Shown here: positions 1 through 20,612 of the stretch, piece after piece | How positions within the stretch are numbered: the stretch's first letter is position 1 | Layout: every line of letters starts with the position of its first letter | DNA from: Candidatus Nanoarchaeia archaeon | Lineage (GTDB): Archaea > Nanobdellota > Nanobdellia > UBA10117 | NCBI GenBank assembly: GCA_035283085.1 | Contig: DATEUM010000059.1 | Span: 1 to 24,087, forward strand | Direction: 5' to 3' | Length of the DNA stretch: 24,087 nt | The notes under the pieces: model-generated | The model's input: the letters and a program-made list of their open reading frames with translations, nothing else | Database searches by the model: none | Told to the model about the DNA's origin: nothing | Made by a program: the position numbers and the translations under genes

Positions 1-1311
1 CTAGAGAAAAAATCTGAGAACATCAGTACAGTCATAAGCCAAATAGACGCAGATCTTCAGCATAAGAGAACTTTTCAGCACATAATTCATATGGCGCATC
101 CTTCTGCATTGCAGAAGCACATGAGCGGCGAGATATTTATACAAAACTTGCGATCTCCAAGACTGCAAAATTTTGTTTTTGGGCTTGACAGAATAAATAT
201 ACACGGCACTACTGGAAAAGTACCCAAGACGCTTGCAGAATTCTTCAAAGACATATTATATTTGGCAAATTATGTCAGTTCGTTTACAGAGCCAGTATTT
301 GGCATAGATGGTCTTAACCACTATGCTGCCAAATTCGTAAAAAATCTGGAAAAAAATCAACTCGTCAAAGAGTTTACGGCATTTTTAGAGGAGCTTGCAA
401 AATTGGGCAGATTTTACGTGAGCGTAGAACTCGGCAAACCCAGGTATGTAGAAGATGCTGAATACGATGCCAAAACATCTGAAGAGCTGGGAAAAATCCT
501 TCTAAATATAATGGCCAAAGCCAATCAAAATATCTATCCAATCGTAAAGATATGGGACAAAAAGCGGCTCAGGGACGATTTCAGCTTCTTGCCCAGATTT
601 TATTTGGTTAACATGCTGCCGAAGTGGCAGACAGACAACGTTTCAATTGTTGGAGAGTCAAGATTTGATTATAGCTGGCGCGGCCTTTATGGTACTGGAA
701 AGGTTGGCGAGATGCAAAACATTGCAGTCAACTTGCCAAGGCTGGCGCTAAAGAGCAAAAATACTGAAGAATTCATGAAAAATTTAGAATTATTGATTAG
801 CGAATGCATCGAATGCCATCTAAACATGATGGAGTTGACCGTAGGAGAATTTTTGAGAAAACACAAGACTTTGCTTCCGTCCGGTACGAGGGGCCATTGG
901 CGCATAGTCGCAGCTTCAGATTGCAGCTATGCGGTATCCATAGCAGGTTTGAATGAGGTCCTAGAGATTTTGAGGAAAAAGGGCGGCAAGAATATTGATC
1001 CTAATACGGTGCTAAAGCACTGTTTGTCATCGATGAAAGTCAGAGACGCAACTCCAATAAGGCTTGTTTTGCGGGAAGATTGCGATGAAACTATTACAAA
1101 AAGATTTTACGAACTCGATTCAAGATCTTTTCCAGAAGCAAAGAGCTCGAAACAATATTCCGTTGGAGTTGCTTGTGGTGACTTCGAAGAAGGCGGACAC
1201 TGCCACAAACTGCTGTTGGGCGGCCATGTCCACAAAATGAGCAAGCAAGAATACTTAAAAGCCTTAACAAAGCTCGACAAAACAGAATTTGGTTGCATAT
1301 TTGTAAAATGA
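1..1311 (+). CDS. NrdD (class III anaerobic ribonucleotide reductase)-like barrel protein, probably catalytically inactive; 5' end lies outside the window
   Basis: Frame 1 is open from base 1 (LEKKSENIST...) to TGA 1309-1311. NrdD-like motifs in order: KHMSGEIFIQNL (cf. AH.sGdihiHDL), NIAVNLPRLALKS (cf. vislNLPRiAles), SIAGLNEV (cf. gyiGihEt), HKLLLGGHV (cf. pLanGGfI). No C-terminal CxxC Zn ribbon and no R..GY glycyl-radical loop. Confidence 0.75.
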   Translation, partial: LEKKSENISTVISQIDADLQHKRTFQHIIHMAHPSALQKHMSGEIFIQNLRSPRLQNFVFGLDRINIHGTTGKVPKTLAEFFKDILYLANYVSSFTEPVFGIDGLNHYAAKFVKNLEKNQLVKEFTAFLEELAKLGRFYVSVELGKPRYVEDAEYDAKTSEELGKILLNIMAKANQNIYPIVKIWDKKRLRDDFSFLPRFYLVNMLPKWQTDNVSIVGESRFDYSWRGLYGTGKVGEMQNIAVNLPRLALKSKNTEEFMKNLELLISECIECHLNMMELTVGEFLRKHKTLLPSGTRGHWRIVAASDCSYAVSIAGLNEVLEILRKKGGKNIDPNTVLKHCLSSMKVRDATPIRLVLREDCDETITKRFYELDSRSFPEAKSSKQYSVGVACGDFEEGGHCHKLLLGGHVHKMSKQEYLKALTKLDKTEFGCIFVK

Positions 1312-2747
1312 CAGTCGATCTAAAAAATCCTGAGCAAAAAGCCAAATACAAATTGGCTATAGAGAAAGCACTTGATAAGATTCTTTTGGAAGGCGTGCCC
1401 GAAGGCAATATAGTCAGAACGGAAGAAGGCCATAATTTTGAGATTACAAACCCCAGCGAGATTAATTTTAGATTGGGCACTACAATAATACAGGTTAAAC
1501 CGGTTGGCGCAGACGAACCTGTAATAATAGCAAAAAAATCCACTTCAGACCACGTAATACAAAATATTAATTATTATTTAGCTGCAGAAAAAGATAATGT
1601 CACGCTGGTTCCCGAACTTGTTGGAGGCAAGCAGCCTGAAAGTGGCAGACCCGCGTACACCTATTCATTGAAACATGGCAGAGATCTTACTAAAATTGCC
1701 GCAACAACAAATGGTGTGGAATTTTTAAACACCAATGAAGCGGCTGCGCTCTTTGCATATGCGTTAGGTGGCGTGCCGAAAGAGCAATTGAGAAAAAGAT
1801 GGGGGAAACTCAAAATAAAGGACAATGGTTGGCCGAAGGATACAATTACTGACACTTTTGTAGATTTTCCTGATTCATATATACCTCCAAACATAAGGGA
1901 AAATTTGAAAAAGAACAACGCAAGGACTGAGGACGAGAGCATTATATTAGCTATAGCTGAAAAGCAGACTATTGCGAAAAAAAATGGAAAGGAATTGGGA
2001 AATTACGAAAATACTATTAACGAATTTGTGGACTATATTTTGCAAATTTCTGCTAAAAGATACGAAAGGGTAGTTGGCATTTACGAGAACTTAATTAAAC
2101 AGTGCGACGACCTTGAGGCGCGCCTTAAGAGTTCGCCCGCATTTTCCAGGCAGGCTTTGACCGCGTTTAAAAAACGAAAAAGTACTTACATAGCAACTAA
2201 AAGTGAATCTGAACATGAGCTCAAGGGCGTGCGATACGAAATTAGCCAGTTCAACGAGAATCCTCTCGACTTTTCTACACCAACAGTATCGGTTTTCTTA
2301 GACCCCAAACCAGAGAATATACTATTGAAATGTGTGTTTGACGCAGACGTTATTGAAAAGTCGTATATAAAAATAGTAGACCAGACTCTAGAATCAATAA
2401 ATAATGGACCATCATATAAATTTTTGCGAGGCGCGCCGGCATTTCAATATTTCTTGTTGAATTTTGAAACCCGCGAAAATCATCCACCAGGAGTCAAAAG
2501 ACAGCTGACCGAAGCGTGCAAGGAAATGAGGAAATATTGGATAACTAATAAAGATTTACCTGATGACCGATACCACTTATGGAAATCCCCGCGTTTTCTC
2601 AAAACCATGGAAACGCTTGCGATTTATTACAGAGATTCCAGACTTACAAGAAGTACTGCAAATCAAGCCCAGGATAGGTTTAATAATTATTTGCGAACAA
2701 TTGAGCTTCGATATCCCGCGGAAGCGATTACATACCTTGAGCTGTAA
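1308..2747 (+). CDS. Protein kinase-like / aminoglycoside-phosphotransferase-like fold protein (putative)
   Basis: Long ORF; ATG 1308 overlaps the upstream stop (ATGA). Motifs VIIAKK, LVPELVG, HGRDL, FLDPKPENILL (D at 2301) and VFDAD (2334-2348) match the order of kinase-like subdomains. Confidence 0.55.
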   Translation: MTVDLKNPEQKAKYKLAIEKALDKILLEGVPEGNIVRTEEGHNFEITNPSEINFRLGTTIIQVKPVGADEPVIIAKKSTSDHVIQNINYYLAAEKDNVTLVPELVGGKQPESGRPAYTYSLKHGRDLTKIAATTNGVEFLNTNEAAALFAYALGGVPKEQLRKRWGKLKIKDNGWPKDTITDTFVDFPDSYIPPNIRENLKKNNARTEDESIILAIAEKQTIAKKNGKELGNYENTINEFVDYILQISAKRYERVVGIYENLIKQCDDLEARLKSSPAFSRQALTAFKKRKSTYIATKSESEHELKGVRYEISQFNENPLDFSTPTVSVFLDPKPENILLKCVFDADVIEKSYIKIVDQTLESINNGPSYKFLRGAPAFQYFLLNFETRENHPPGVKRQLTEACKEMRKYWITNKDLPDDRYHLWKSPRFLKTMETLAIYYRDSRLTRSTANQAQDRFNNYLRTIELRYPAEAITYLEL

Positions 2748-2752
2748 TACTT

Positions 2753-3712
2753 ATGTTGCGATACCTAGGCCTCACTATTGGGCCGCAAGCGCCGAACAAG
2801 ATAAAGCGATTTTCCCTGGACGAAGTTATAAAAATTAGCGACAAAATCCGCAAATTTTTTCCAGAAATTGATGGCATAGAGATAAGATTTGGCGACGTCC
2901 GGGATAAGGAAACTGGCGCCATAACTGAAGCCGGGCCGAGCGTAGATGAAATCTTCAACGCATTAGAGGAATTGGACGACCGATTTGATTCCATTGCTTT
3001 TCATTTGTCCGAGCATACACTAGATTTGCTGCAAAATGGGAAACTGGGCGATCATAATAGTTTTCTGGATGATTTTGACCATGTTGTTGGGCATCTGACA
3101 GAATACGAGAACCTCTGGGCAAAGATTGTGGATGACACATATTCCAAAACCATGCATTTTGAACCTTATGTTTTAAGGAAAATATTAGTTGAAAACGGGA
3201 GCAAAGATTCATTCAGGTATATAGCGAGATTCGCAAACCGCAGGAAAGCCGCAATGGTTTATGATACGGGGCATCATGCCCAGGCTTTCCAGACTGTTGA
3301 CCCAAAGAGGAATAAGTTTTATGACAGCATCAAGCCCTACATTACCAGAGCGGATGGCGAGTATGGCTATGTGAGCAGGAGAAAATTGGAATGGCTCCGC
3401 TCAATGGCTTATGCCATAAGACACGCGCATGTGCACGGAGTCCGCGTCAAAGAAACTGATGAGGGCTGCGACTGGGAAGACCACGTGCCGCTTGAAAGCA
3501 GGAAAAATTGGACAACGCCCGTACAGGCAGGCATAATCGCAGTTTTGCTGGATAATGCGCCGAATTTTGGCGGTTACACGATAGAGCTCAATAGGACACA
3601 CATAATAGACAGGGAAAACAAGATTACTTTAGACAACATAGGGAATACCATGTATGCGTTTGAGAAAAAGAGATTCAACTGGCGCTGGAATATAAAATAT
3701 GTTAAGGAATAG
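2753..3712 (+). CDS. Xylose isomerase-like / AP endonuclease 2 family TIM-barrel metalloenzyme
   Basis: Motifs in family order: DGIEI, SIAFH, HFEP, YDTGH, HAHVH, DHVPL, YTIE. Starts 5 nt after the upstream stop. Confidence 0.75.
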   Translation: MLRYLGLTIGPQAPNKIKRFSLDEVIKISDKIRKFFPEIDGIEIRFGDVRDKETGAITEAGPSVDEIFNALEELDDRFDSIAFHLSEHTLDLLQNGKLGDHNSFLDDFDHVVGHLTEYENLWAKIVDDTYSKTMHFEPYVLRKILVENGSKDSFRYIARFANRRKAAMVYDTGHHAQAFQTVDPKRNKFYDSIKPYITRADGEYGYVSRRKLEWLRSMAYAIRHAHVHGVRVKETDEGCDWEDHVPLESRKNWTTPVQAGIIAVLLDNAPNFGGYTIELNRTHIIDRENKITLDNIGNTMYAFEKKRFNWRWNIKYVKE

Positions 3713-3854
3713 GGTAAAACAGACAAGCTCTGTTGAAAATCTCCGCTAGACTGGGGAAAGCTTATTGTCTAAGAAGGCTTTAGCTAGACTTGGCTTCTGG
3801 TTAACTCTGAAGCTTTGCCAATAGAACTTTTTCAATGGAGCCAAACAGTCAAAT

Positions 3855-3865
3855 AAGCTTTTAAA
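3855..3865 (+). promoter_or_regulatory. Candidate BRE/TATA box for the 3895 gene
   Basis: AAGCTTTTAAA ending 30 nt upstream of ATG 3895. The same AAGCTT(T)TTAAA-type signature precedes the 6544 and 10541 starts. Confidence 0.45.
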
Positions 3866-3894
3866 GCTTCATTCTGGCTTTTAAATGAAGGAAA

Positions 3895-4449
3895 ATGGCA
3901 TTAAAATTAAGTGATGAGGATTCCAAAGCCTTAAATCACTTAAGTGACATTGATGTTAATATGGAGAAGTATACTCTGCGTCATGTTTTGGACAAAGTTC
4001 AAGGTGACCTTTGCGATGAGCTGGCTTACATCAATCACACCGCCAGAACTGGAAGTGGAAATGGCGCATTTTGGATTTCCTTGCCAAATAACGCAGGGCT
4101 TTATTTGGCGGAGAAGGAAAACAAAGTTCTAATGCAATTAGTTTATCCTAACAGCTATCAATTAGCAGATATACCTGGAGGCCGAGAAGCAGAAGCCGAC
4201 GCATCTTTATATCCATGGCTGTCTGACACCAATTACAAATCTCAGACGCATAAAGTTCTGGAGCAGGTTTTAGATCCTGCGGCTTATGGCGTCAACAATG
4301 GCAGCGAATTTGACAAAAATAAATACGACGCGCTCGTAGAAAACGGAAACGTCATAGGAAGAAAGTTATTGAATTTGTATGTAAACTTATTATTGGAAGA
4401 ACAAGTACACAGGCAAGCTTACGGCGCCAGGCCAAACCAAGAATACTAA
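3895..4449 (+). CDS. Hypothetical protein (184 aa)
   Basis: Protein-like ORF with purine-rich GAAGGAAA before ATG and an upstream TATA-like box; no recognised motif. Confidence 0.7.
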   Translation: MALKLSDEDSKALNHLSDIDVNMEKYTLRHVLDKVQGDLCDELAYINHTARTGSGNGAFWISLPNNAGLYLAEKENKVLMQLVYPNSYQLADIPGGREAEADASLYPWLSDTNYKSQTHKVLEQVLDPAAYGVNNGSEFDKNKYDALVENGNVIGRKLLNLYVNLLLEEQVHRQAYGARPNQEY

Positions 4450-4895: not shown

Positions 4896-5042
4896 TTAGT
4901 AGATGACTAAGCCACACTTCAAGCAAAAGACCTCGCCTGTGAAGTAGTTTGTGCTTATGTCCTCTGACTGGCAGGCCGGGCACTCCTCCATAGTCCAAGC
5001 TTTTGTCTTGACCTTCGGCATTGTAGCCGTTTTCGTTTTCAT
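4896..5042 (-). CDS. Small stand-alone TFIIB-type zinc-ribbon protein (about 48 aa)
   Basis: ECPACQSEDISTNYFTGEVFCLKCGLVI matches the TFIIB Zn-ribbon pattern. Start placed at MKTKT because SD-like GGTGGGG directly precedes it and TTTTAAAC lies further upstream. Confidence 0.7.
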   Translation of the reverse strand: MKTKTATMPKVKTKAWTMEECPACQSEDISTNYFTGEVFCLKCGLVIY

Positions 5043-5169
5043 CCCCACCATTTCAAACACCCCAATCACACTAACGCAATTTTGTTTAAAATATCTTTCT
5101 TCGAGATATGTAGTATCACAAACCATAAAGTATGTCAGAATGTGATAACAAAACGAGCAATTTGGCGGT

Positions 5170-11338: not shown

Positions 11339-12796
11339 ATGCTTGAGGGTTATCTTGTACAAGAACAACCTAAAGTCGAACTTGTTGCAGTACTAAAAGG
11401 TATAGGTTCTTTTGAAGGTCTTGGCCCTGATCACATCGCGGCATATGCCGCAAGAGGCGATTTCGCATTTGAAAGTTCTGCACAGCTTGTGCAAGCCGAC
11501 CGCGAAAAAAACGCGCTGGGTAAAAAGACGCGCGGTGTTCTGGCAAATTCCTTTGGCAAAGGCCATGGTTCTGTTGGCGACATGACGGCATTTGTCTTTT
11601 CCATTGAAAATCTTACGAGGGCCGCAACCCTTCAGCTATGTTTCCCAGAATATTTGGAGCATGAGCAGCAATCCCTCAGAAGGGTGCAGGCTAAAAGAGG
11701 CATTTACTTGCCGCCTGCCCTGGAGAAATCCGCATTGGCGAATGAAGTCAAAACAACTCTGGAGGATTCGGTGCAGCTTTACAAAGAGATGGCAGGCATA
11801 GGCCTGCCTGACGACAAAAAGGAAAGCTCTGTGCCCGAAGAAGATGCGCGATTCGTATTGCCACTTTTGACCAGAACTAACATCACTACAAAGGGCAACG
11901 CCCGCGAGCTGATACACCTTTACACAATGAACCAGCAAGGCGAAGTGCCGTCTTACGTCGCGGATATAGTTTTAGCGATGCATGGGAAGGCAAAAGACGC
12001 GGCACCGCACACATTTGCCAGAGGGTCGTTGAACTATGAAACCCTGGGATTTTTCCCCTCGATGACTCTGTACGCATCCGAAAACCGCACATTAAATGAA
12101 ATAATCAAGACTAACAGCAATGATGATGTAGCTTTTGTGAAGCATAAGGTAGATGAAGAAACTATGCAGAGGGCAGTTGAGCAGAAAAGAGAGGAGGAGC
12201 TTGCAAACCTAAAACATGTTCGCGACGGCGAACACATGTCTGGGTTTTTGTTCCCGATATCACTCGCTGGTTTCCATCAAACCATTCGGCAAAGGACGTG
12301 GCATCATACTTGCGAGTCTATTTATGATGCTGCAGTCAGAGGCACCATAAAGTTACCTCCAAGCATAGAAAAATCAGAATGGAATATGCGATATTTGTCA
12401 CAATGCAGCGAAATGCTGAACTTGTACAAAGATCTTACTGATGCGGGAGTACCGAGAGCAGAAGCTGTTGGCGTCATACCGCATGCGACTATGCTCTATG
12501 ATTTTATTCAAGTTGACGGTTGGAATGCGGTGCACGCTATCGGCAAAAGAACTTGTTTGGAAGCGCAATGGGAAATCAGAAGCATATGCAATCAGATAGC
12601 GGCGCATCTCAGGGAAAAGAAATCGCCGCTTGGCGAATATGCGCAGCCACAATGTTTGACATATGGCCTTTGCCCAGAAGAAAAGAAAAGCTGGGCTGAA
12701 AATCCTGAAAATTCCACATGCAGCATATACAAGCGGTTGATGAAGCAGGGAAAACTTGATCAGGAAAAATGGCGTGCTACTGAAGAGACAAAGTGA
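11339..12796 (+). CDS. thyX: FAD-dependent thymidylate synthase, tandem two-domain form
   Basis: Two ThyX-like domains: GHGSVGD, QQSLRR, EDARFVLP, GNAREL (domain 1); QTIRQR...ES, EAVGVIP, KRTCLEAQWEIR (domain 2). Directly upstream of tmk; TTTTATAA about 21 nt upstream. Confidence 0.85.
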   Translation: MLEGYLVQEQPKVELVAVLKGIGSFEGLGPDHIAAYAARGDFAFESSAQLVQADREKNALGKKTRGVLANSFGKGHGSVGDMTAFVFSIENLTRAATLQLCFPEYLEHEQQSLRRVQAKRGIYLPPALEKSALANEVKTTLEDSVQLYKEMAGIGLPDDKKESSVPEEDARFVLPLLTRTNITTKGNARELIHLYTMNQQGEVPSYVADIVLAMHGKAKDAAPHTFARGSLNYETLGFFPSMTLYASENRTLNEIIKTNSNDDVAFVKHKVDEETMQRAVEQKREEELANLKHVRDGEHMSGFLFPISLAGFHQTIRQRTWHHTCESIYDAAVRGTIKLPPSIEKSEWNMRYLSQCSEMLNLYKDLTDAGVPRAEAVGVIPHATMLYDFIQVDGWNAVHAIGKRTCLEAQWEIRSICNQIAAHLREKKSPLGEYAQPQCLTYGLCPEEKKSWAENPENSTCSIYKRLMKQGKLDQEKWRATEETK

Positions 12797-12797
12797 A

Positions 12798-13580
12798 ATG
12801 GCAAAAGGTTTTTTTGTTATGATAGATGGCCCTGACGGCGTGGGCAAAGGCACTCTTACCAATGCTGTCATCAAGCATCTTGTAGAACAGGGAAAAGAAG
12901 TTCTTGAGCTGCAAAGGTGGTGGCTGAAGCACGGCTGGCACCCACCAATAGGCGAATTAAAATCAAGAAAAATCAATGTCCTTATTTCTGCAGAGCCAAC
13001 TTTTGTCGGCGTTGGCAAAGAGATTCGGAATGAAATTATCAGCACAGAGGCTAGAAAAGCAGGAAGAAAATATTCCGCACGGCAAACTGCGGAGGCTTAT
13101 GCTCTCGATCGCACAGTATTGTACCAAAATGTGATAATTCCTGCGCTGAAAGCAGGCATTACAGTCATACAAGAACGAGGTTTTCCGTCAAGTTTGGCAT
13201 ACCAGACGCTTCAGGCTAAAGAATCTGGAGAAAGTCTTACAATGGAACATATCGCACAAATGGAAGGCAACCAGCTTGCAATGCAATTTCCTCCAGACTT
13301 GCTGGTAATACCCACAGTAAATGCTGAGGAAGCCATAAAAAGACTGGAGAAAAGGTTTGAGAAAAAGGATGACGCCATTTTTGAAAAGAAAAATTTCCAG
13401 GAAAAGCTAAGGGCTTTATACAATACAGTGGAATTCATAGCAGTTTTTGAGAAGTTGGGGACGAAAGTGGTTTTTGTGGATGCCAGCAAGCCAATATCAG
13501 AGACTGAAGCCCAAATCATTGACATACTGAACCAGTACATCAAGAGCAGCAAGCCCACACTAAGCAAGTGGTTCAAATAA
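12798..13580 (+). CDS. tmk: Thymidylate kinase
   Basis: P-loop IDGPDGVGKGT, EPT, AYALDR, IQER...SSLAYQ, PDL. Start at MAKGF, 1 nt after the thyX stop. Confidence 0.9.
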   Translation: MAKGFFVMIDGPDGVGKGTLTNAVIKHLVEQGKEVLELQRWWLKHGWHPPIGELKSRKINVLISAEPTFVGVGKEIRNEIISTEARKAGRKYSARQTAEAYALDRTVLYQNVIIPALKAGITVIQERGFPSSLAYQTLQAKESGESLTMEHIAQMEGNQLAMQFPPDLLVIPTVNAEEAIKRLEKRFEKKDDAIFEKKNFQEKLRALYNTVEFIAVFEKLGTKVVFVDASKPISETEAQIIDILNQYIKSSKPTLSKWFK

Positions 13581-16140: not shown

Positions 16141-17076
16141 ATGGAAAACAAGACAATCGAGATGAGCCCCAATCTAATATATGCGCTCATAATTATTGGA
16201 GTTGCGATAGCCGCAGTATTGGGCTTTATTCTGAAGGTTTCTCCATATCTCATAACTTTGGCGCTGTTGATGGGCATCGTGGGCTTTACAGCGACATTTG
16301 TTGCATGTCGCAAGCATTGCCTATCACAGATGCACTGCGCAATGTGTGGAATGGTTTTCGGCATGATTCCGGCGTTTATTGTTGGAACTATTCATGCCCT
16401 GCAAACAGGGGACTTTGTCTGGCCCATAATCACGGGAACAATTGCAGGCGCTGCTCTAGGAATACCTTTTGGCAACATAGGCGGCGATATGGGCCGGTTA
16501 GAAGCGGTAATGGCTGCGCCAATGGCAGGAATAATGGGCTCTATGACAGGAGTCATGGTAAGAATATATAATGTGGATTTGTTCATGATTGCTTTTGCAG
16601 CGATAATACTGTTTGTCCTGGGCGAGACCGCGTATATGGTGCACAAAACTTCTGGCAGGAAGCTGGATATGAAAAGCATAGGCATTGGCTGCATTCTTGG
16701 GCTAATATTTCTTGTACCAGTATCCCTAATTTCATTCCCAACAAATGTTGCTGCTACAGACTTGCAAGGTTTCTTGCAGGAAAGTGCCCCATCCGCTGCT
16801 GCTGAAAAGCAAGAAATTGGCATAAGAATTACCCGTTACGGATATGAGCCAGCTAATATAGATGTGAAAAAGGGTGCGGCGGTAAAGCTCAACTTGCAAG
16901 CAGATCCTGACGCAGGATGCGCAAGGGCTTTTACAATTCCTAGTTTGGGCATACAAAAAGTAGTGCAGCCAGGCGGCACAGAGACTGTTGAGTTTACAGC
17001 ACCAAACGATGAAAACATTAATATTCCGTTCCAGTGCTCAATGGGCATGGCCCGAGGTATGATCGATGTTGTCTAA
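16141..17076 (+). CDS. Multi-pass Met/Gly/Cys-rich membrane protein fused to a C-terminal cupredoxin-like domain
   Basis: Several hydrophobic segments with HCLSQMHCAMCGM and MAGIMGSMTGVM; C-terminal GYEPANIDVKKG..V, GCA, FQCSMGM..G. Confidence 0.8.
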   Translation: MENKTIEMSPNLIYALIIIGVAIAAVLGFILKVSPYLITLALLMGIVGFTATFVACRKHCLSQMHCAMCGMVFGMIPAFIVGTIHALQTGDFVWPIITGTIAGAALGIPFGNIGGDMGRLEAVMAAPMAGIMGSMTGVMVRIYNVDLFMIAFAAIILFVLGETAYMVHKTSGRKLDMKSIGIGCILGLIFLVPVSLISFPTNVAATDLQGFLQESAPSAAAEKQEIGIRITRYGYEPANIDVKKGAAVKLNLQADPDAGCARAFTIPSLGIQKVVQPGGTETVEFTAPNDENINIPFQCSMGMARGMIDVV

Positions 17077-17089
17077 CTGCCGTACTATG

Positions 17090-17195
17090 AAATCTCTCAA
17101 CACCGAAGCTTCGCAGAAGCGAGGCACAGCTGAACCGCAGTTCAGGTTGTGTAAGGGCTGCGCAAGATATGCAGCCATAGACCTTAGACTTACCC
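17090..17195. repeat. Dispersed palindromic element, copy C (long internal loop)
   Basis: Minus strand GGGTA-AG-TCTAAGGTCTATGGCTGC-[about 50 nt with hairpin CTGAAC/GTTCAG]-CTGCGAAGC-ttcggtgt-TGAGA-GA-T; collinear with copies B and D. Confidence 0.7.
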
Positions 17196-17214
17196 TTTGT
17201 AGTGGGGTGAAAGC

Positions 17215-19257
17215 ATAGCAACTGATCCGATCTGCGGCATGTATGTGGACGATAAATCTGCGACCATTACTAAGACTATCAAAGAAACCAAATATTACTT
17301 CTGCAGCTCCAATTGTCTTGTAGCTTTTGAAGCTCCTGAAAAGGAGATGAAGAGGCTGAAATATGAGGCCATTTTTGGCGGAATCTTCGCAGCAATTGCA
17401 ATGACGCTGTTTTTCCTTCAAGACTTTCAATACCATGATATAGCAGCTCTCTTGGTCACGTTGCCTGTGCAGTTTGTAATTGGCAGAAGGTTTTACAGTG
17501 GCGCTTGGGATGGCCTCAAGTCAAAGAGCGCAAATATGGACACTTTGATTGCGCTCGGCACGTCTGCCGCATGGTTCTATTCTGCATATGTAACGCTGAC
17601 TGGAGGAGATGGCGTTTATTTTGAAGTTGCGGCCATAATCATTGCCGCTACAGTAATTGGAAAATATCTCGAAGAAATTATGAAGCACAAGGCAACTGCA
17701 GCCTTGCACAAATTGATGGACCTGCGGCCTAAAATTGCAAAAGTTTTGGTGAAAGGCAAGGAAATTGAAAAGCCTATTTCTGAGGTTAAAGTTGGCGATA
17801 TATGCGTAGTAAGGCCTGGCCAGTCAATACCTACAGACGGTGTTGTGTTTGATGGCCACTCTGAAGTCAACGAGTCAATGGTAACCGGCGAATCTATGCC
17901 AGTCTCAAAATACAAGGGCGATTCTGTAATCGGAGGCACGATAAATGAAGGTGGCTTGTTGAAAATTAAAACTACTAAAGTCGGCGAGGACACTGTTCTG
18001 CAGCAGATAATTGCACTCGTGGGACAAGCACAGCTGCAAAAAATACCAATTCAGCATCTTGTCGATAAGGTTGCTGCAAGATTTGTTCCTGCCGTAATAT
18101 TAATTGCGCTCGGCGCGTTTGCGTTTTGGTCTCTCACAGGCCAAGAATTTATCTTCGCACTTACAATCGCAATTTCAGTCCTGATTATAGCATGCCCCTG
18201 TGCCTTAGGGCTTGCAACTCCGACAGCGCTTGTGATAGGAATAGGAAAAGCCGCTGAACAAGGCATTTTGGTCAGAGCAGGTTCTGCACTTGAACTGGCA
18301 AAGAATGTTGATACGATTGTTTTTGATAAGACAGGCACGCTGACAAAAGGAAAGCCTGATGTCATTGACATTGTTGCATTGAAAGGTAAGAAAGATGACG
18401 TTTTGAGAATAGCAGCAATTGCAGAATACGGCTCTGAACATCCACTTGGAAGGGCAATTGTGAAAAAAGCTGATGATTCGAAACTTAAAGTTCCAGAAGG
18501 CAGCAAATACAAGACCCTCGCAGGAAAAGGCATTATTGCAGCCTACAAGGATTCGGCAATTTTTGTAGGCAACAGGGATTTGATGAGTGAATACAAGATA
18601 AATCTAAGAAAGGTCGAGCCTGTGTTAAAATCATACGAGGCGCAGGCTAAAACAGCAATCCTTGTCGCTTTTGATAGGCAAATAATAGGCATTATTACGC
18701 TGGCTGATACTCTAAAAGAAACTTCTCCTAATGCTGTGGAGAGATTGAAAAAACTAGGCAAGGAACTCATATTATTAACTGGTGACAATGAAAAGACTGC
18801 CAAGGAAATAGCAAGGCAGGTAGGCATAACAAAAATACTTGCAAATGTAAAACCTGGAGACAAAGCAGCAAAAATCAAGGAACTACAAGCGCAGGGAAAG
18901 AAAGTTGCAATGGTCGGCGATGGTGTCAATGACGCACCTGCTCTGGCGCAAGCAGATTTGGGCATAGCAATAGGCTCTGGAACTGATGTTGCAAAAGAAA
19001 CTGGCCAGATAGTTCTAATTAAGGACGATTTGCGTGATGTGGCAAAAGCCATCGAAATAAGCACTAAAACCATCAACAAGATTAAACAGAATTTAGTCTG
19101 GGCATTCGGCTACAATGTGGCAGCAATCCCAATAGCTGCAGGCCTATTGTATCCTAGCTTCGGCCTGCTTTTGAGTCCCATTATAGCGTCTATAGCTATG
19201 GCAACTTCTTCGGTATCTGTTGTAAGCAATAGTTTGCTGATGAAATTGATGAAATAA
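17215..19257 (+). CDS. copA: Cu(+)-exporting P1B-type ATPase with N-terminal YHS domain; probable ATA start
   Basis: CPC (TM6), DKTGT, SEHP, TGDN, GDGVND, YN and MATSS (P1B-1 signature). The YHS start ATDPICGM lies upstream of the annotated ATG 17239, beginning at in-frame ATA 17215 after SD GGGGTGA. Confidence 0.92.
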   Translation: MATDPICGMYVDDKSATITKTIKETKYYFCSSNCLVAFEAPEKEMKRLKYEAIFGGIFAAIAMTLFFLQDFQYHDIAALLVTLPVQFVIGRRFYSGAWDGLKSKSANMDTLIALGTSAAWFYSAYVTLTGGDGVYFEVAAIIIAATVIGKYLEEIMKHKATAALHKLMDLRPKIAKVLVKGKEIEKPISEVKVGDICVVRPGQSIPTDGVVFDGHSEVNESMVTGESMPVSKYKGDSVIGGTINEGGLLKIKTTKVGEDTVLQQIIALVGQAQLQKIPIQHLVDKVAARFVPAVILIALGAFAFWSLTGQEFIFALTIAISVLIIACPCALGLATPTALVIGIGKAAEQGILVRAGSALELAKNVDTIVFDKTGTLTKGKPDVIDIVALKGKKDDVLRIAAIAEYGSEHPLGRAIVKKADDSKLKVPEGSKYKTLAGKGIIAAYKDSAIFVGNRDLMSEYKINLRKVEPVLKSYEAQAKTAILVAFDRQIIGIITLADTLKETSPNAVERLKKLGKELILLTGDNEKTAKEIARQVGITKILANVKPGDKAAKIKELQAQGKKVAMVGDGVNDAPALAQADLGIAIGSGTDVAKETGQIVLIKDDLRDVAKAIEISTKTINKIKQNLVWAFGYNVAAIPIAAGLLYPSFGLLLSPIIASIAMATSSVSVVSNSLLMKLMK

Positions 19258-19311
19258 ATGGAAAGAGCGTACATTGGAAAAGGTTTAAAGGATTTTGGGG
19301 GCTAGTTTAGC

Positions 19312-20001
19312 ATGCATGACTGTGAGCGGTGCGGGAAGTCGTTCGATTCCGAGGATGCCTTGAGGCAGCATAATGTTGCCAAACACGGCTCTGAGGACGT
19401 AAAGCCAAAGAAAAGCAAGTTCGTGTTCAAGGCGCTTGCAATTGTCATAGTTATTATTGGCGTAGCCATTGTGGCTTTCCTGCTGTTTTCAAAGCCATCC
19501 TATTCGCCTCTGCCTGCGGCAGAGCATGTCAAGGGCAATGGCACAATCGAAATCTTAGAGTTCAGCGATTTCCAGTGCCCTGCCTGCGGTGTTGCATATC
19601 CGCAGGCAAAGCTTTTCCTGGAGAACAGCTCTGACAAGGTGCGCTTTGTCTACAAGCACTTTCCCTTGACACAAACGCACCCTTTCGCATTTAAAGCCGC
19701 AGAAGCTTCCGAATGTGCTGCTGACCAGGGCAAGTTCTGGGAGTATCATGATATGCTTTTTGAAAACCAGCGCAGCCTCAAGGAGCCTGATTTGATAAGA
19801 TATGCAGAGAACATCGGGCTGGACAAAGAGTCTTTTAAGGTATGCCTGGATAGCGGGGCAATGGCTAAACGCATAAAAGCAGATATGGCTGAAGGCAGCC
19901 GCCTTGATGTCAGCGCAACACCGACATTCTTTATCAGCGGCAAGAAATTTGAAGGTGCCTTGACAGCCGAAAAATTTGAACAGGAGGTTGCAAACGCATG
20001 A
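19312..20001 (+). CDS. DsbA-family thiol-disulfide oxidoreductase with N-terminal C2H2 zinc finger and TM anchor
   Basis: CERC-x12-H-x4-H, TM helix, EFSDFQCPAC, YKHFPL, AAEASECAADQGKFWEYHD, TPTFFI; TTTAAA at 19284-19289. Confidence 0.88.
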   Translation: MHDCERCGKSFDSEDALRQHNVAKHGSEDVKPKKSKFVFKALAIVIVIIGVAIVAFLLFSKPSYSPLPAAEHVKGNGTIEILEFSDFQCPACGVAYPQAKLFLENSSDKVRFVYKHFPLTQTHPFAFKAAEASECAADQGKFWEYHDMLFENQRSLKEPDLIRYAENIGLDKESFKVCLDSGAMAKRIKADMAEGSRLDVSATPTFFISGKKFEGALTAEKFEQEVANA

Positions 20002-20612
20002 AAATACTTGCAGTAATATTGATAGCTGCAATTGTCGGCGCAGTTGTTGGCACCATAGTAACGACTGCGGCACTGAGCCTGATGGCAGATAAGTCGAAAG
20101 ACGATTTGATAAAAGATTTTTACGAGATTGAGAATGCTGTATACGTGAGCCCGCACGGCTTGCGCAAGTCAATGGATGAAGGCAAAGACAACTTTATTCT
20201 TGTAGACCTGAGGAGCCAGGAAGAGTACGAAAAGGAACACATCATAGGCGCCGTAAATATCCCTGCATATAAGGATCCCAATACGTCTGCATACGGTGAT
20301 GTCGAGCGAATTGTGGGCGCATTCAAAGAATTGCGGGCAGAGAATCCTGACAAGGAAATCATAGTTTACTGTTACAGCATGCCCTGCATGACGGGCCGGA
20401 AAATAGGCCTGATGTTAGTTGAGAACGGAATTTATGCCAAGCATCTTGGCATAGGGTGGAACGAATGGCGATATTACTGGACTATGTGGAACCATGAAGG
20501 GGAATGGGAATCCACCAATGTTACAGATTACATAGCAAGCGGCCCTGAGCCCGGAGTGCCAAAACTGAAAAATACTGGCAGCCCTTGCACAGTGGGAAGT
20601 CTCGGCTGCTGA
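19998..20612 (+). CDS. Exported rhodanese-like domain protein
   Basis: Signal/TM N-terminus, LVDLRSQEEYEKEHIIGAVNIP, IIVYCYSMPC, LGIGWNEW. Confidence 0.85.
   Translation: MKILAVILIAAIVGAVVGTIVTTAALSLMADKSKDDLIKDFYEIENAVYVSPHGLRKSMDEGKDNFILVDLRSQEEYEKEHIIGAVNIPAYKDPNTSAYGDVERIVGAFKELRAENPDKEIIVYCYSMPCMTGRKIGLMLVENGIYAKHLGIGWNEWRYYWTMWNHEGEWESTNVTDYIASGPEPGVPKLKNTGSPCTVGSLGC

What the first reader, a model, noticed from the sequence alone, without database searches (positions are those of the whole stretch)
1..1311. NrdD-fold pseudoenzyme: class III RNR barrel lacking both catalytic Cys and the whole radical domain
Seen: NrdD-like motifs occur in order across the barrel. Aligned from memory to E. 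coli NrdD, FNCML (Cys175) corresponds to QNFVF (Phe, codon 172-174) and the thiyl-radical PMGCRSF (Cys384) to IVGESRF (Glu, 655-657), while the Glu of GIHET is kept (GLNEV). The protein stops just where the Zn ribbon and RxxGY glycyl loop would begin. Established: class III RNR needs the Gly radical and the finger-loop Cys. Inference: this is a non-catalytic paralog with an intact reading frame, possibly a nucleotide sensor, a regulatory heterodimer partner of a real NrdD, or a repurposed scaffold.
Basis: partly seen in the sequence, partly recalled or inferred. Interest (0 to 1): 0.7.

Follow-up and report, generated by a model that had tools for sequence, protein, structure and literature searches.

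The report
Dead anaerobic reductase turned DNA-binding regulator
The first 1311 bases encode the tail of a DPANN-archaeal protein that is a catalytically dead anaerobic ribonucleotide reductase; in all full-length relatives it carries a DNA-binding head, so it is most likely a transcription factor, a use of this enzyme that I did not find described.

Summary
ORF 1-1311 (436 codons, cut at its 5' end by the contig start) is a class III RNR (NrdD) barrel. Pfam NRDD scores above its cut-off, and the model of its 61%-identical orthologue matches solved NrdDs at Z about 30. It has no cysteine at either catalytic position and ends six residues before the T4 zinc ribbon.

It has also lost the HxHD triphosphate motif, the GGQ strand and loop 2. 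No stand-alone glycyl-radical piece, NrdG or true NrdD was found in its 82%-complete genome.

Full-length relatives (about 600 aa) add an ArsR/TrmB-type winged helix and an ATP-cone whose phosphate-binding Lys-Arg is replaced. The family is one clade, present in 23 of 39 species of the order, mostly in genomes without NrdD.

A TATCAC box next to BRE/TATA is the most enriched hexamer in the promoters of these genes. It also marks a neighbouring mini TFB zinc-ribbon gene, which lies in the window at 4896-5051.

Best reading: a transcription factor built on a dead RNR scaffold. Sensing of nucleotides is not supported by the residues, and partnership with NrdD is not supported.

This scan noted the same family at least eight times in other genomes. 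I found no paper describing it.

The parts
1..1311 (+). C-terminal 436 codons plus TGA stop of the wHTH / ATP-cone / dead-NrdD gene. Window residue 1 corresponds to residue 184 of the 619-aa orthologue P0002. The wHTH and ATP-cone part lies off the contig.
127..150 (+). GEIFIQNL, the remnant of the NrdD triphosphate-binding G-x-I-H-x-H-D-L motif. The changes are His to Phe46, His to Gln48 and Asp to Asn49.
   Evidence: motif defined in PMC4493059
166..180 (+). QNFVF, the position of the first catalytic Cys (E. coli C175, T. maritima C125), here N57 or F58. There is no Cys.
646..666 (+). IVGESRF, the finger-loop remnant. E219 (nt 655-657) replaces the thiyl-radical Cys (E. coli C384).
730..747 (+). 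NLPRLA, a barrel motif kept in true NrdDs and in the dead clades. Asn is in 38 of 39 and Pro in 37 of 39 family members.
946..957 (+). GLNE. E319 aligns with the Glu of E. coli GIHET and is kept in 24 of 39 family members.
1219..1227 (+). GGH motif, shared with true NrdDs, near the end of the barrel. The protein stops 27 residues later, where the Zn ribbon would begin.
1308..2747 (+). orf2, 479 aa. Its ATG overlaps the TGA stop of the dead-NrdD gene (ATGA). It looks protein-kinase/APH-like (catalytic-loop-like FLDPKPENI). A homologue was found only next to the nearest orthologue.
2753..3712 (+). orf3, 319 aa, a xylose-isomerase/AP-endonuclease-2-like TIM barrel (a lead only). It completes the tight three-gene operon.
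4896..5051 (-). Mini TFB-type zinc-ribbon gene (51 aa, PF08271 above its cut-off). It is the conserved convergent partner at the far side of the variable gene slot.
5062..5148 (-). Promoter of the mini zinc-ribbon gene. It carries TTATCACA (5148-5141), TGTGATAC (5120-5113), the composite TATCTCGAAGAAAGATATTTTAAAC (5108-5084) and GTGAT (5069-5065). The same box family sits in the promoters of the dead-NrdD genes in other loci. This is the candidate operator.

Best explanation
The gene encodes a transcription factor built from an inactivated class III ribonucleotide reductase. The full protein is about 620 aa, of which the window holds the last 436. It consists of an N-terminal ArsR/TrmB-type winged helix, a degenerate ATP-cone and an NrdD alpha/beta barrel.

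The barrel has lost both catalytic cysteines, the triphosphate motif, loop 2, the zinc ribbon and the glycyl-radical domain, so it cannot reduce nucleotides.

Inferred mechanism:
- The barrel serves as the dimerisation and signal-receiving body, as NrdD is a dimer.
- The two winged helices bind TATCAC half-sites that flank the BRE/TATA of its own promoter and of the nearby mini TFB zinc-ribbon gene.
- This controls its own operon, which here includes a kinase-like and a TIM-barrel protein, and the zinc-ribbon gene.
- The sign of regulation and the signal are unknown. If a small molecule is sensed, it is not bound at the canonical RNR nucleotide sites.

Shown: fold, loss of catalytic and nucleotide-binding residues, domain architecture of the orthologues, conservation, and the enriched promoter motif. 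Inferred: DNA binding, TATCAC as the operator, and dimerisation.
For: Fold:
- Pfam NRDD scores above its cut-off.
- The AF2 model of the 61%-identical orthologue has pLDDT 87.5.
- It matches class III RNR structures at Foldseek E 1e-13 to 1e-16 and VIA Z 26-30, against 18-20 for class I and II.

Losses:
- Residue table against 20 true NrdDs, alignments and no conserved Cys column.
- No stand-alone Gly-radical or Zn piece, no NrdG and no other NRDD match in the genome.

Architecture:
- wHTH families HTH_24, HTH_5, MarR and TrmB match P0002 and P0003, and 33 of 39 family members of at least 430 aa match a wHTH profile built from the family.
- The linker is an ATP-cone. Pfam ATP-cone matches 5 of 31 members.
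- The best PDB profile hit is the S. thermophilus NrdD cone.
- For the isolated domain model, all 50 top PDB hits are ATP-cone proteins.
- The cone's Lys-Arg positions hold Asn/Thr/Asp and Glu/Asp.

Selection:
- The family is one clade with support 99.
- It is present in 23 of 39 species and 16 of 21 genera of the order.
- dN is 0.28 with dS saturated.

Cis element:
- GTGATA/TATCAC is the top hexamer of 2080 tested, found in 15 of 22 promoters against 5 of 160 control pieces.
- It sits beside BRE/TATA in at least 8 lineages, including an Aenigmatarchaeota locus.
- The same box marks the mini TFB zinc-ribbon gene promoter in 11 loci and in the window.
- The full composite occurs only once in this genome.
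Against: - The wHTH and cone of this particular gene are not in the assembly. They are inferred from orthologues.
- DNA binding is untested.
- The TATCAC box could belong to another factor, or be a lineage-specific promoter element.
- The loci are related, so the enrichment statistics overstate independence.
- The window's own promoter is missing, so autoregulation cannot be checked here.
- Seven of 22 promoters lack an exact TATCAC.
- Conserved polar residues inside the barrel (Asn and Arg of NLPR, Glu of GLNE, Arg and Asp of RFxxLD, GGH, and the finger-loop WQ...RFD..W) would also fit a new ligand site or a new catalytic site.
Confidence: 0.65

Rival explanations
1. It is a nucleotide-sensing regulator, an archaeal analogue of NrdR. 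The dead barrel or the cone still binds ATP, dATP or dNTPs and tunes DNA binding to the precursor pools.
For: - The scaffold comes from a protein with three nucleotide sites.
- An Arg or Lys often replaces His114 of the HxHD motif (21 of 39 members).
- The barrel interior keeps conserved polar residues.
- ThyX and thymidylate kinase lie 10 kb away in the window.
- Earlier notes of this scan place the longer sister clade next to working RNR genes (untested here).
Against: - Canonical ligand-contacting residues are gone in this clade. The HxHD motif reads F-x-(R/Q)-N, GGQ is deleted, loop 2 is deleted and the Mg-binding Gln is not kept.
- The PAE helix start is lost, and the cone's Lys-Arg is replaced by Asn/Thr/Asp and Glu/Asp.
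- There is no TATCAC box upstream of the genome's only RNR gene.
- The gene occurs with either RNR class.
Confidence: 0.2
2. It is a non-DNA protein scaffold or regulatory subunit. It would pair with a working RNR (NrdD or NrdJ) or with the co-transcribed kinase-like protein, and the wHTH would serve protein contacts.
For: - The ATGA overlap with orf2 indicates co-translation.
- NrdD forms dimers (established knowledge).
- A divergent CBS-pair gene lies beside it in 15 of 25 loci.
Against: - Most genomes with the family have no NrdD.
- orf2 has a homologue only beside the nearest orthologue, and the downstream slot holds unrelated genes elsewhere.
- The recognition-helix region INFSTAHKYLEQLE is nearly invariant, and it goes with a conserved DNA motif.
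Confidence: 0.08
3. It is an enzyme with new, non-radical chemistry in the old barrel, fused to a wHTH as in bifunctional enzyme-repressors.
For: A set of polar residues inside the barrel is conserved in at least 80% of members: N244, R247, E278, R354, E359, R368, H409 and the WQ...RFD..W finger loop.
Against: - No known RNR-fold enzyme works without a radical (established knowledge).
- The substrate phosphate sites are eroded.
- Several of these residues are also kept in true NrdDs and may be structural.
Confidence: 0.05
4. It is a decaying pseudogene or an assembly artefact.
For: The gene is cut by the contig end, and the genome is only 82% complete.
Against: - There are 436 codons without a stop.
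- Orthologues of 566-709 codons without stops occur in 23 species genomes.
- dN is well below that of the neighbouring genes.
- The AF2 model is confident.
Confidence: 0.02

Closest known systems
Class III (anaerobic, glycyl-radical) ribonucleotide reductase NrdD (T4 1H7B, T. maritima 4COJ, P. copri 8P27, S. thermophilus 9DCA)
   Same: - Ten-stranded alpha/beta barrel with a finger loop (Z about 30 over about 390-405 residues).
- Preceding ATP-cone.
- Shared motifs NLPR, GLNE, RFxxLD and GGH.
   Different: - No thiyl Cys and no second Cys.
- No HxHD triphosphate motif; the GGQ strand and loop 2 are deleted.
- No Zn ribbon and no glycyl-radical domain; no activase found in the genome.
- An N-terminal wHTH is added.
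NrdR (bacterial repressor of RNR genes: Zn ribbon plus ATP-cone)
   Same: A DNA-binding module is fused to an ATP-cone derived from RNRs. NrdR structures are among the fold matches of the cone domain.
   Different: - DNA binding is by a wHTH, not a Zn ribbon.
- It carries a whole dead catalytic barrel.
- The cone's Lys-Arg is lost.
- No box was found at the RNR gene in this genome.
- No common descent of the whole protein is implied.
The longer wHTH-NrdD-like clade of other archaea (about 760 aa, for example P0055 from Promethearchaeota, annotated as 'anaerobic ribonucleoside-triphosphate reductase')
   Same: - wHTH head (14 of 35 rows match the profile).
- Dead barrel without either Cys.
- The shared finger-loop motif P-x-W-Q...R-x-D-S-x-W-K.
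   Different: - That clade keeps the Zn ribbon and a degenerate C-terminal loop (C-terminal HMM E 1e-13 to 1e-16).
- It retains the first His of HxHD more often.
- It is a separate clade in the tree.
ArsR/MarR/TrmB-type archaeal wHTH regulators with a C-terminal sensor domain
   Same: An N-terminal wHTH (HTH_24, HTH_5, MarR, TrmB hits) is followed by a large effector or dimerisation domain. Candidate operator half-sites lie around BRE/TATA.
   Different: The C-terminal domain is an RNR catalytic subunit. I did not find this reported for any regulator.

Membership tests
Class III RNR NrdD (active enzyme) | RNR alpha/beta barrel with finger loop; Pfam NRDD match | tested here: met
   PF13597 scores 37 bits against a cut-off of 26.2. 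The orthologue's model matches at Z 26-30.
Class III RNR NrdD (active enzyme) | Equivalog-level score (TIGR02487, cut-off 326 bits) | tested here: not met
   26.9 bits
Class III RNR NrdD (active enzyme) | Thiyl-radical Cys on the finger loop (E. coli C384) | tested here: not met
   The column holds E219. It is Cys in 20 of 20 true NrdDs and in 0 of 39 family members.
Class III RNR NrdD (active enzyme) | Second active-site Cys (E. coli C175, T. maritima C125) | tested here: not met
   The column holds N57 or F58. It is Cys in 20 of 20 true NrdDs and in 0 of 39 family members.
Class III RNR NrdD (active enzyme) | C-terminal Zn ribbon and glycyl-radical loop (RxxGY) | tested here: not met
   The protein ends after the last barrel strand. 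No separate piece was found in the genome.
Class III RNR NrdD (active enzyme) | HxHD triphosphate-binding motif | tested here: not met
   It reads F-I-Q-N in the window. The motif is defined in PMC4493059 and PMC11226230.
Class III RNR NrdD (active enzyme) | Activase NrdG in the genome | tested here: inconclusive
   The best TIGR02491 match has E 0.2, but the genome is only 82% complete.
ATP-cone (PF03477) | Beta-hairpin plus helical cone fold | tested here: met
   Tested on orthologues only, because this part is off the window. All 50 top PDB hits of the domain model are ATP-cone proteins. Pfam ATP-cone matches 5 of 31 members.
ATP-cone (PF03477) | Basic Lys-Arg of VxKRDG that binds the phosphates | tested here: not met
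   The two positions hold N/T/D and E/D/N/W. The role of the residues is described in PMC11226230.
wHTH transcription regulators (ArsR/MarR/TrmB type) | Winged-helix DNA-binding domain | tested here: inconclusive
   It is present in orthologues (HTH_24 E 1.5e-8; 33 of 39 members). The window's own N-terminus is missing and was not found elsewhere in the assembly.
wHTH transcription regulators (ArsR/MarR/TrmB type) | Sequence-specific DNA binding at target promoters | not testable with these tools
   Only indirect evidence: TATCAC box enrichment.
NrdR | N-terminal Zn ribbon plus a nucleotide-binding ATP-cone; boxes at RNR promoters | tested here: not met
   It has a wHTH instead of a Zn ribbon. 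The cone's Lys-Arg is lost. There is no box upstream of nrdJ on contig C18.

The most novel reading that the evidence does not exclude
The dead-NrdD regulator and the mini TFB zinc-ribbon protein form a two-promoter switch that brackets a slot of fast-changing genes. The regulator reads a cellular signal, possibly nucleotide pools, through a non-canonical site in the old barrel. It then controls a zinc-ribbon decoy that competes with TFB for RNA polymerase. This would give these host-dependent archaea a global brake on transcription, coupled to DNA-precursor or host-derived metabolite supply.
Probability: 0.12. Interest if true: 0.85.

Novelty: new variant of a known kind. Interest (0 to 1): 0.6.

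Why it matters
- Ribonucleotide reductase is among the best studied enzymes, yet I found no description of a catalytic subunit recycled as the body of a transcription factor.
- The family is widespread in DPANN archaea, and a longer sister clade occurs in other archaea. Public annotation labels members either as a generic wHTH regulator or, wrongly, as the working reductase. That mislabelling can distort metabolic reconstructions, for example a call of 'has anaerobic RNR'.
- Archaea lack NrdR, so an RNR-derived regulator is a natural candidate for the missing control of DNA-precursor genes.
- In this DPANN clade, however, the nucleotide sites are eroded and the candidate targets are its own operon and a TFB zinc-ribbon mimic. 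This points to a different and testable regulatory circuit.

Tried and rejected
- A profile of the first four family members found no NrdD among PDB sequences. The link needed Pfam and fold comparison.
- The missing N-terminus was not found on another contig.
- The CBS-pair gene that lies upstream in 15 of 25 related loci was not found in this assembly with one query.
- dN/dS could not be computed because synonymous sites are saturated. Only dN is quoted.
- The search for homologues of orf2 returned only itself.
- HMM iteration and phmmer did not link the downstream genes of different loci.
- PADLOC gave no defence-system match for ten slot genes.
- A C-terminal Zn-ribbon and Gly-radical HMM found nothing credible in the six-frame translation of the genome (best E 0.04). 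This rejects the 'split but active RNR' reading.
- No TATCAC box lies upstream of the class II RNR gene or of thyX.
- Literature searches for a wHTH-NrdD fusion or an RNR pseudoenzyme found nothing relevant.

Full report
**Where it lies.** The window is contig C59 of a 568-kb, 96-contig genome that is 82% complete. It carries a TFIIB/TFB gene, and related loci come from Woesearchaeota, Nanoarchaeota, Pacearchaeota and Aenigmatarchaeota MAGs. The organism is therefore a small-genome DPANN archaeon. The ORF at 1-1311 is open from base 1, so the contig starts inside the gene. It has 436 codons and a TGA stop at 1309-1311.

**The observation.**
- Pfam NRDD matches above its gathering score (37 against 26.2 bits), while the NrdD equivalog model is far below its cut-off (26.9 against 326).
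- I fetched E. coli K-12 nrdD.
- In MAFFT alignments with E. coli NrdD, true NrdDs and the family, the finger-loop Cys column holds E219 (nt 655-657). E319 of GLNE aligns with the Glu of GIHET.
- The protein ends after the last barrel strand.
- An AlphaFold model of the 61%-identical full-length orthologue P0002 has pLDDT 87.5. It matches class III RNRs at Foldseek E 1e-13 to 1e-16.
- VIA gives Z 26-30 with rmsd 2.8-5.0 Å over 389-406 residues. Class I and II RNRs score 18-20.
- The model's last residue corresponds to T4 residue 537, just ahead of the Zn ribbon.

**Further losses.**
- Aurelius et al. (PMC4493059) define the triphosphate motif H-Y-H-D and name the effector residues Q161, Q210 and Q218, loop 2, and the phosphate-binding helix start.
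- I mapped these through a true NrdD (P0070) that HMMER aligns residue by residue to T. maritima NrdD.
- I then tabulated 20 true NrdDs, 35 members of a longer dead clade and 39 family members.
- In the family the two His and the Asp of HxHD read F, R/Q/K and N. In the window they are F46, Q48 and N49.
- The GGQ strand is deleted, and loop 2 with its Arg and Gln is deleted.
- The Mg-binding Gln and the P-A-E helix start are not kept.
- NLPR, the Glu of GLNE, RFxxLD and GGH are kept, and so is a finger-loop motif (WQ...RFD..W) specific to the dead clades.
- No Cys column exceeds 13 of 32 sequences.
- The genome has one NRDD match only and no NrdG.
- It has no separate Zn-ribbon or Gly-radical piece. 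The best E was 0.04, while positive controls scored 1e-13 to 1e-35.
- It does have a class I/II-type RNR on contig C18.
- The 'split but active' alternative is rejected.

**What the whole protein is.**
- A search of 5.8 billion proteins found three relatives. An exhaustive HMMER search found 49 cluster representatives at E below 1e-30.
- Full-length members are about 590-640 aa. They begin with a winged helix matching HTH_24, HTH_5, MarR and TrmB. A profile of that region matches 33 of 39 members of at least 430 aa.
- Between the wHTH and the barrel lies an 80-residue domain that is an ATP-cone.
  - Pfam ATP-cone matches 5 of 31 members, best E 5e-5.
  - The best PDB profile hit is the cone of S. 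thermophilus NrdD.
  - For a model of the domain alone (pLDDT 90.7), all 50 top PDB hits are ATP-cone proteins: class III and Ia RNRs, NrdR, and NrdB with a cone.
  - The Lys-Arg that binds the phosphates (PMC11226230) is replaced by Asn/Thr/Asp and Glu/Asp.
- The window's own N-terminus is not in the assembly.

**Evolution and selection.**
- A maximum-likelihood tree of 102 proteins puts the family in one clade (SH-aLRT 99).
- A second clade of about 760-aa proteins is also Cys-less, and many of its members match the wHTH profile. It keeps the Zn ribbon and a degenerate C-terminal loop.
- True NrdDs fall in a third group, together with another truncated dead lineage.
- One member of the longer clade is from Promethearchaeota and is annotated as a working anaerobic RNR.
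- Within the window's order, 23 of 39 species genomes carry the gene as an open frame of 566-709 codons. I exclude one weak hit that is a real NrdD.
- Only 6 of 39 genomes have an NrdD above the equivalog cut-off, and 27 of 39 have a class I/II enzyme.
- The family occurs with NrdD in 4-5 genomes and without it in the rest, including this one.
- Against the nearest orthologue dN is 0.28 with synonymous sites saturated. The two co-transcribed genes have dN of 0.73 and 0.87.

**Context.**
- The gene's TGA overlaps the ATG of orf2 as ATGA, and orf3 follows after five bases.
- orf2 looks protein-kinase/APH-like (language-model lead at 0.94, and a catalytic-loop-like FLDPKPENI). orf3 looks like a xylose-isomerase/AP-endonuclease-2 TIM barrel.
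- Homologues of these genes were found only beside the nearest orthologue, plus orf3 in one further locus. In other loci the same position holds unrelated genes.
- Upstream, 15 of 25 loci have a divergent CBS-pair gene and a DUF63 membrane protein.

**A candidate operator.**
- When I read the promoters of the family's genes in 22 loci, TATCAC/GTGATA recurred directly upstream of BRE/TATA, and often again downstream of it.
- An unbiased test of all 2080 hexamers ranks it first: 15 of 22 promoters against 5 of 160 control intergenic pieces, p = 6e-13. Overlapping words come next.
- The loci are related, so the p-value is inflated. Still, at least eight lineages with 25-45% protein identity keep the box, including an Aenigmatarchaeota locus.
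- Most 'background' occurrences turned out to be the promoter of a small convergent gene at the far side of the variable slot. It is a 45-63-aa stand-alone TFB-type zinc ribbon (PF08271 above its cut-off). Its promoter reads TATC(A/G)CGAAGAAAGATATTTTAAA in 11 loci.
- The window has this gene at 4896-5051 on the minus strand, with boxes at 5062-5148. The full composite occurs only there in the genome.
- No box lies upstream of the RNR gene.

**Reading.** The evidence best fits a transcription factor on a dead RNR scaffold that regulates itself and the zinc-ribbon gene. DNA binding, dimerisation and the signal remain inferences.
- The 'nucleotide sensor' idea is weakened for this clade by the loss of every canonical ligand contact, but it is not excluded.
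- The 'partner of NrdD' idea is not supported.

**Prior knowledge.**
- Full-text searches found no paper on such a fusion.
- Earlier notes of this scan describe the same family in at least eight other genomes. One note covers the same DPANN cassette with the zinc-ribbon gene and a shared motif. I had reached the motif and the zinc-ribbon gene independently before reading that note.
- The finding is therefore real and interesting, but it is not new to this scan.

Noticed in passing
window 4896-5051 (-), promoter 5062-5148: A stand-alone 51-aa TFB-type zinc-ribbon gene (PF08271, 31.8 bits against a cut-off of 29). Its strongly conserved promoter, TATC(N)CGAAGAAAGATATTTTAAA, is found in 11 related loci. 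It could be an RNA-polymerase-docking decoy.
   Followed up: partly
window 1308-4449 (+): A slot of fast-changing genes lies between the dead-NrdD gene and the zinc-ribbon gene. Here it holds a kinase/APH-like protein (FLDPKPENI), a xylose-isomerase-like TIM barrel and a 184-aa protein related to the C-terminus of a 439-aa protein in L003. Other loci hold unrelated genes at this place. There were no PADLOC hits.
   Followed up: partly
window 11339-12796 (+): The ThyX protein is 485 aa with two Thy1 stretches, about twice the usual length. This suggests a tandem-duplicated or fused ThyX. It overlaps a thymidylate kinase gene (12756-13580).
   Followed up: no
G000 contig C18:1515-4800 (+): The genome's only working-type RNR is an open frame of 1093 aa. 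The Pfam large-subunit match is split into two stretches (profile positions 2-456 and 417-523), which could reflect an insertion such as an intein. The same layout occurs in 11 genomes of a sister family.
   Followed up: no
proteins P0055-P0143 (rep search): A separate clade of about 760-aa NrdD-like proteins has neither catalytic Cys, and many members match the wHTH profile. They keep the Zn ribbon and a degenerate Gly loop (for example RLSSKY, RSSATY). One is from Promethearchaeota and is annotated as a working anaerobic RNR.
   Followed up: partly
proteins P0062, P0064, P0065, P0072, P0091, P0128: Another truncated, Cys-less NrdD-like lineage (about 590-660 aa, no wHTH detected) groups with true NrdDs in the tree. 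IMG annotates it as 'ribonucleoside-triphosphate reductase'.
   Followed up: no
related loci L014-L031, upstream of the family gene: A divergently transcribed CBS-pair protein (about 180 aa) and a DUF63 membrane protein are conserved neighbours in 15 of 25 loci. The CBS gene was not found in this assembly.
   Followed up: partly
window 16141-20612 (+): A copper-handling cluster: a cupredoxin-domain protein, a P-type ATPase, a DsbA-like thioredoxin with an N-terminal C2H2 zinc-finger match, and a rhodanese.
   Followed up: no
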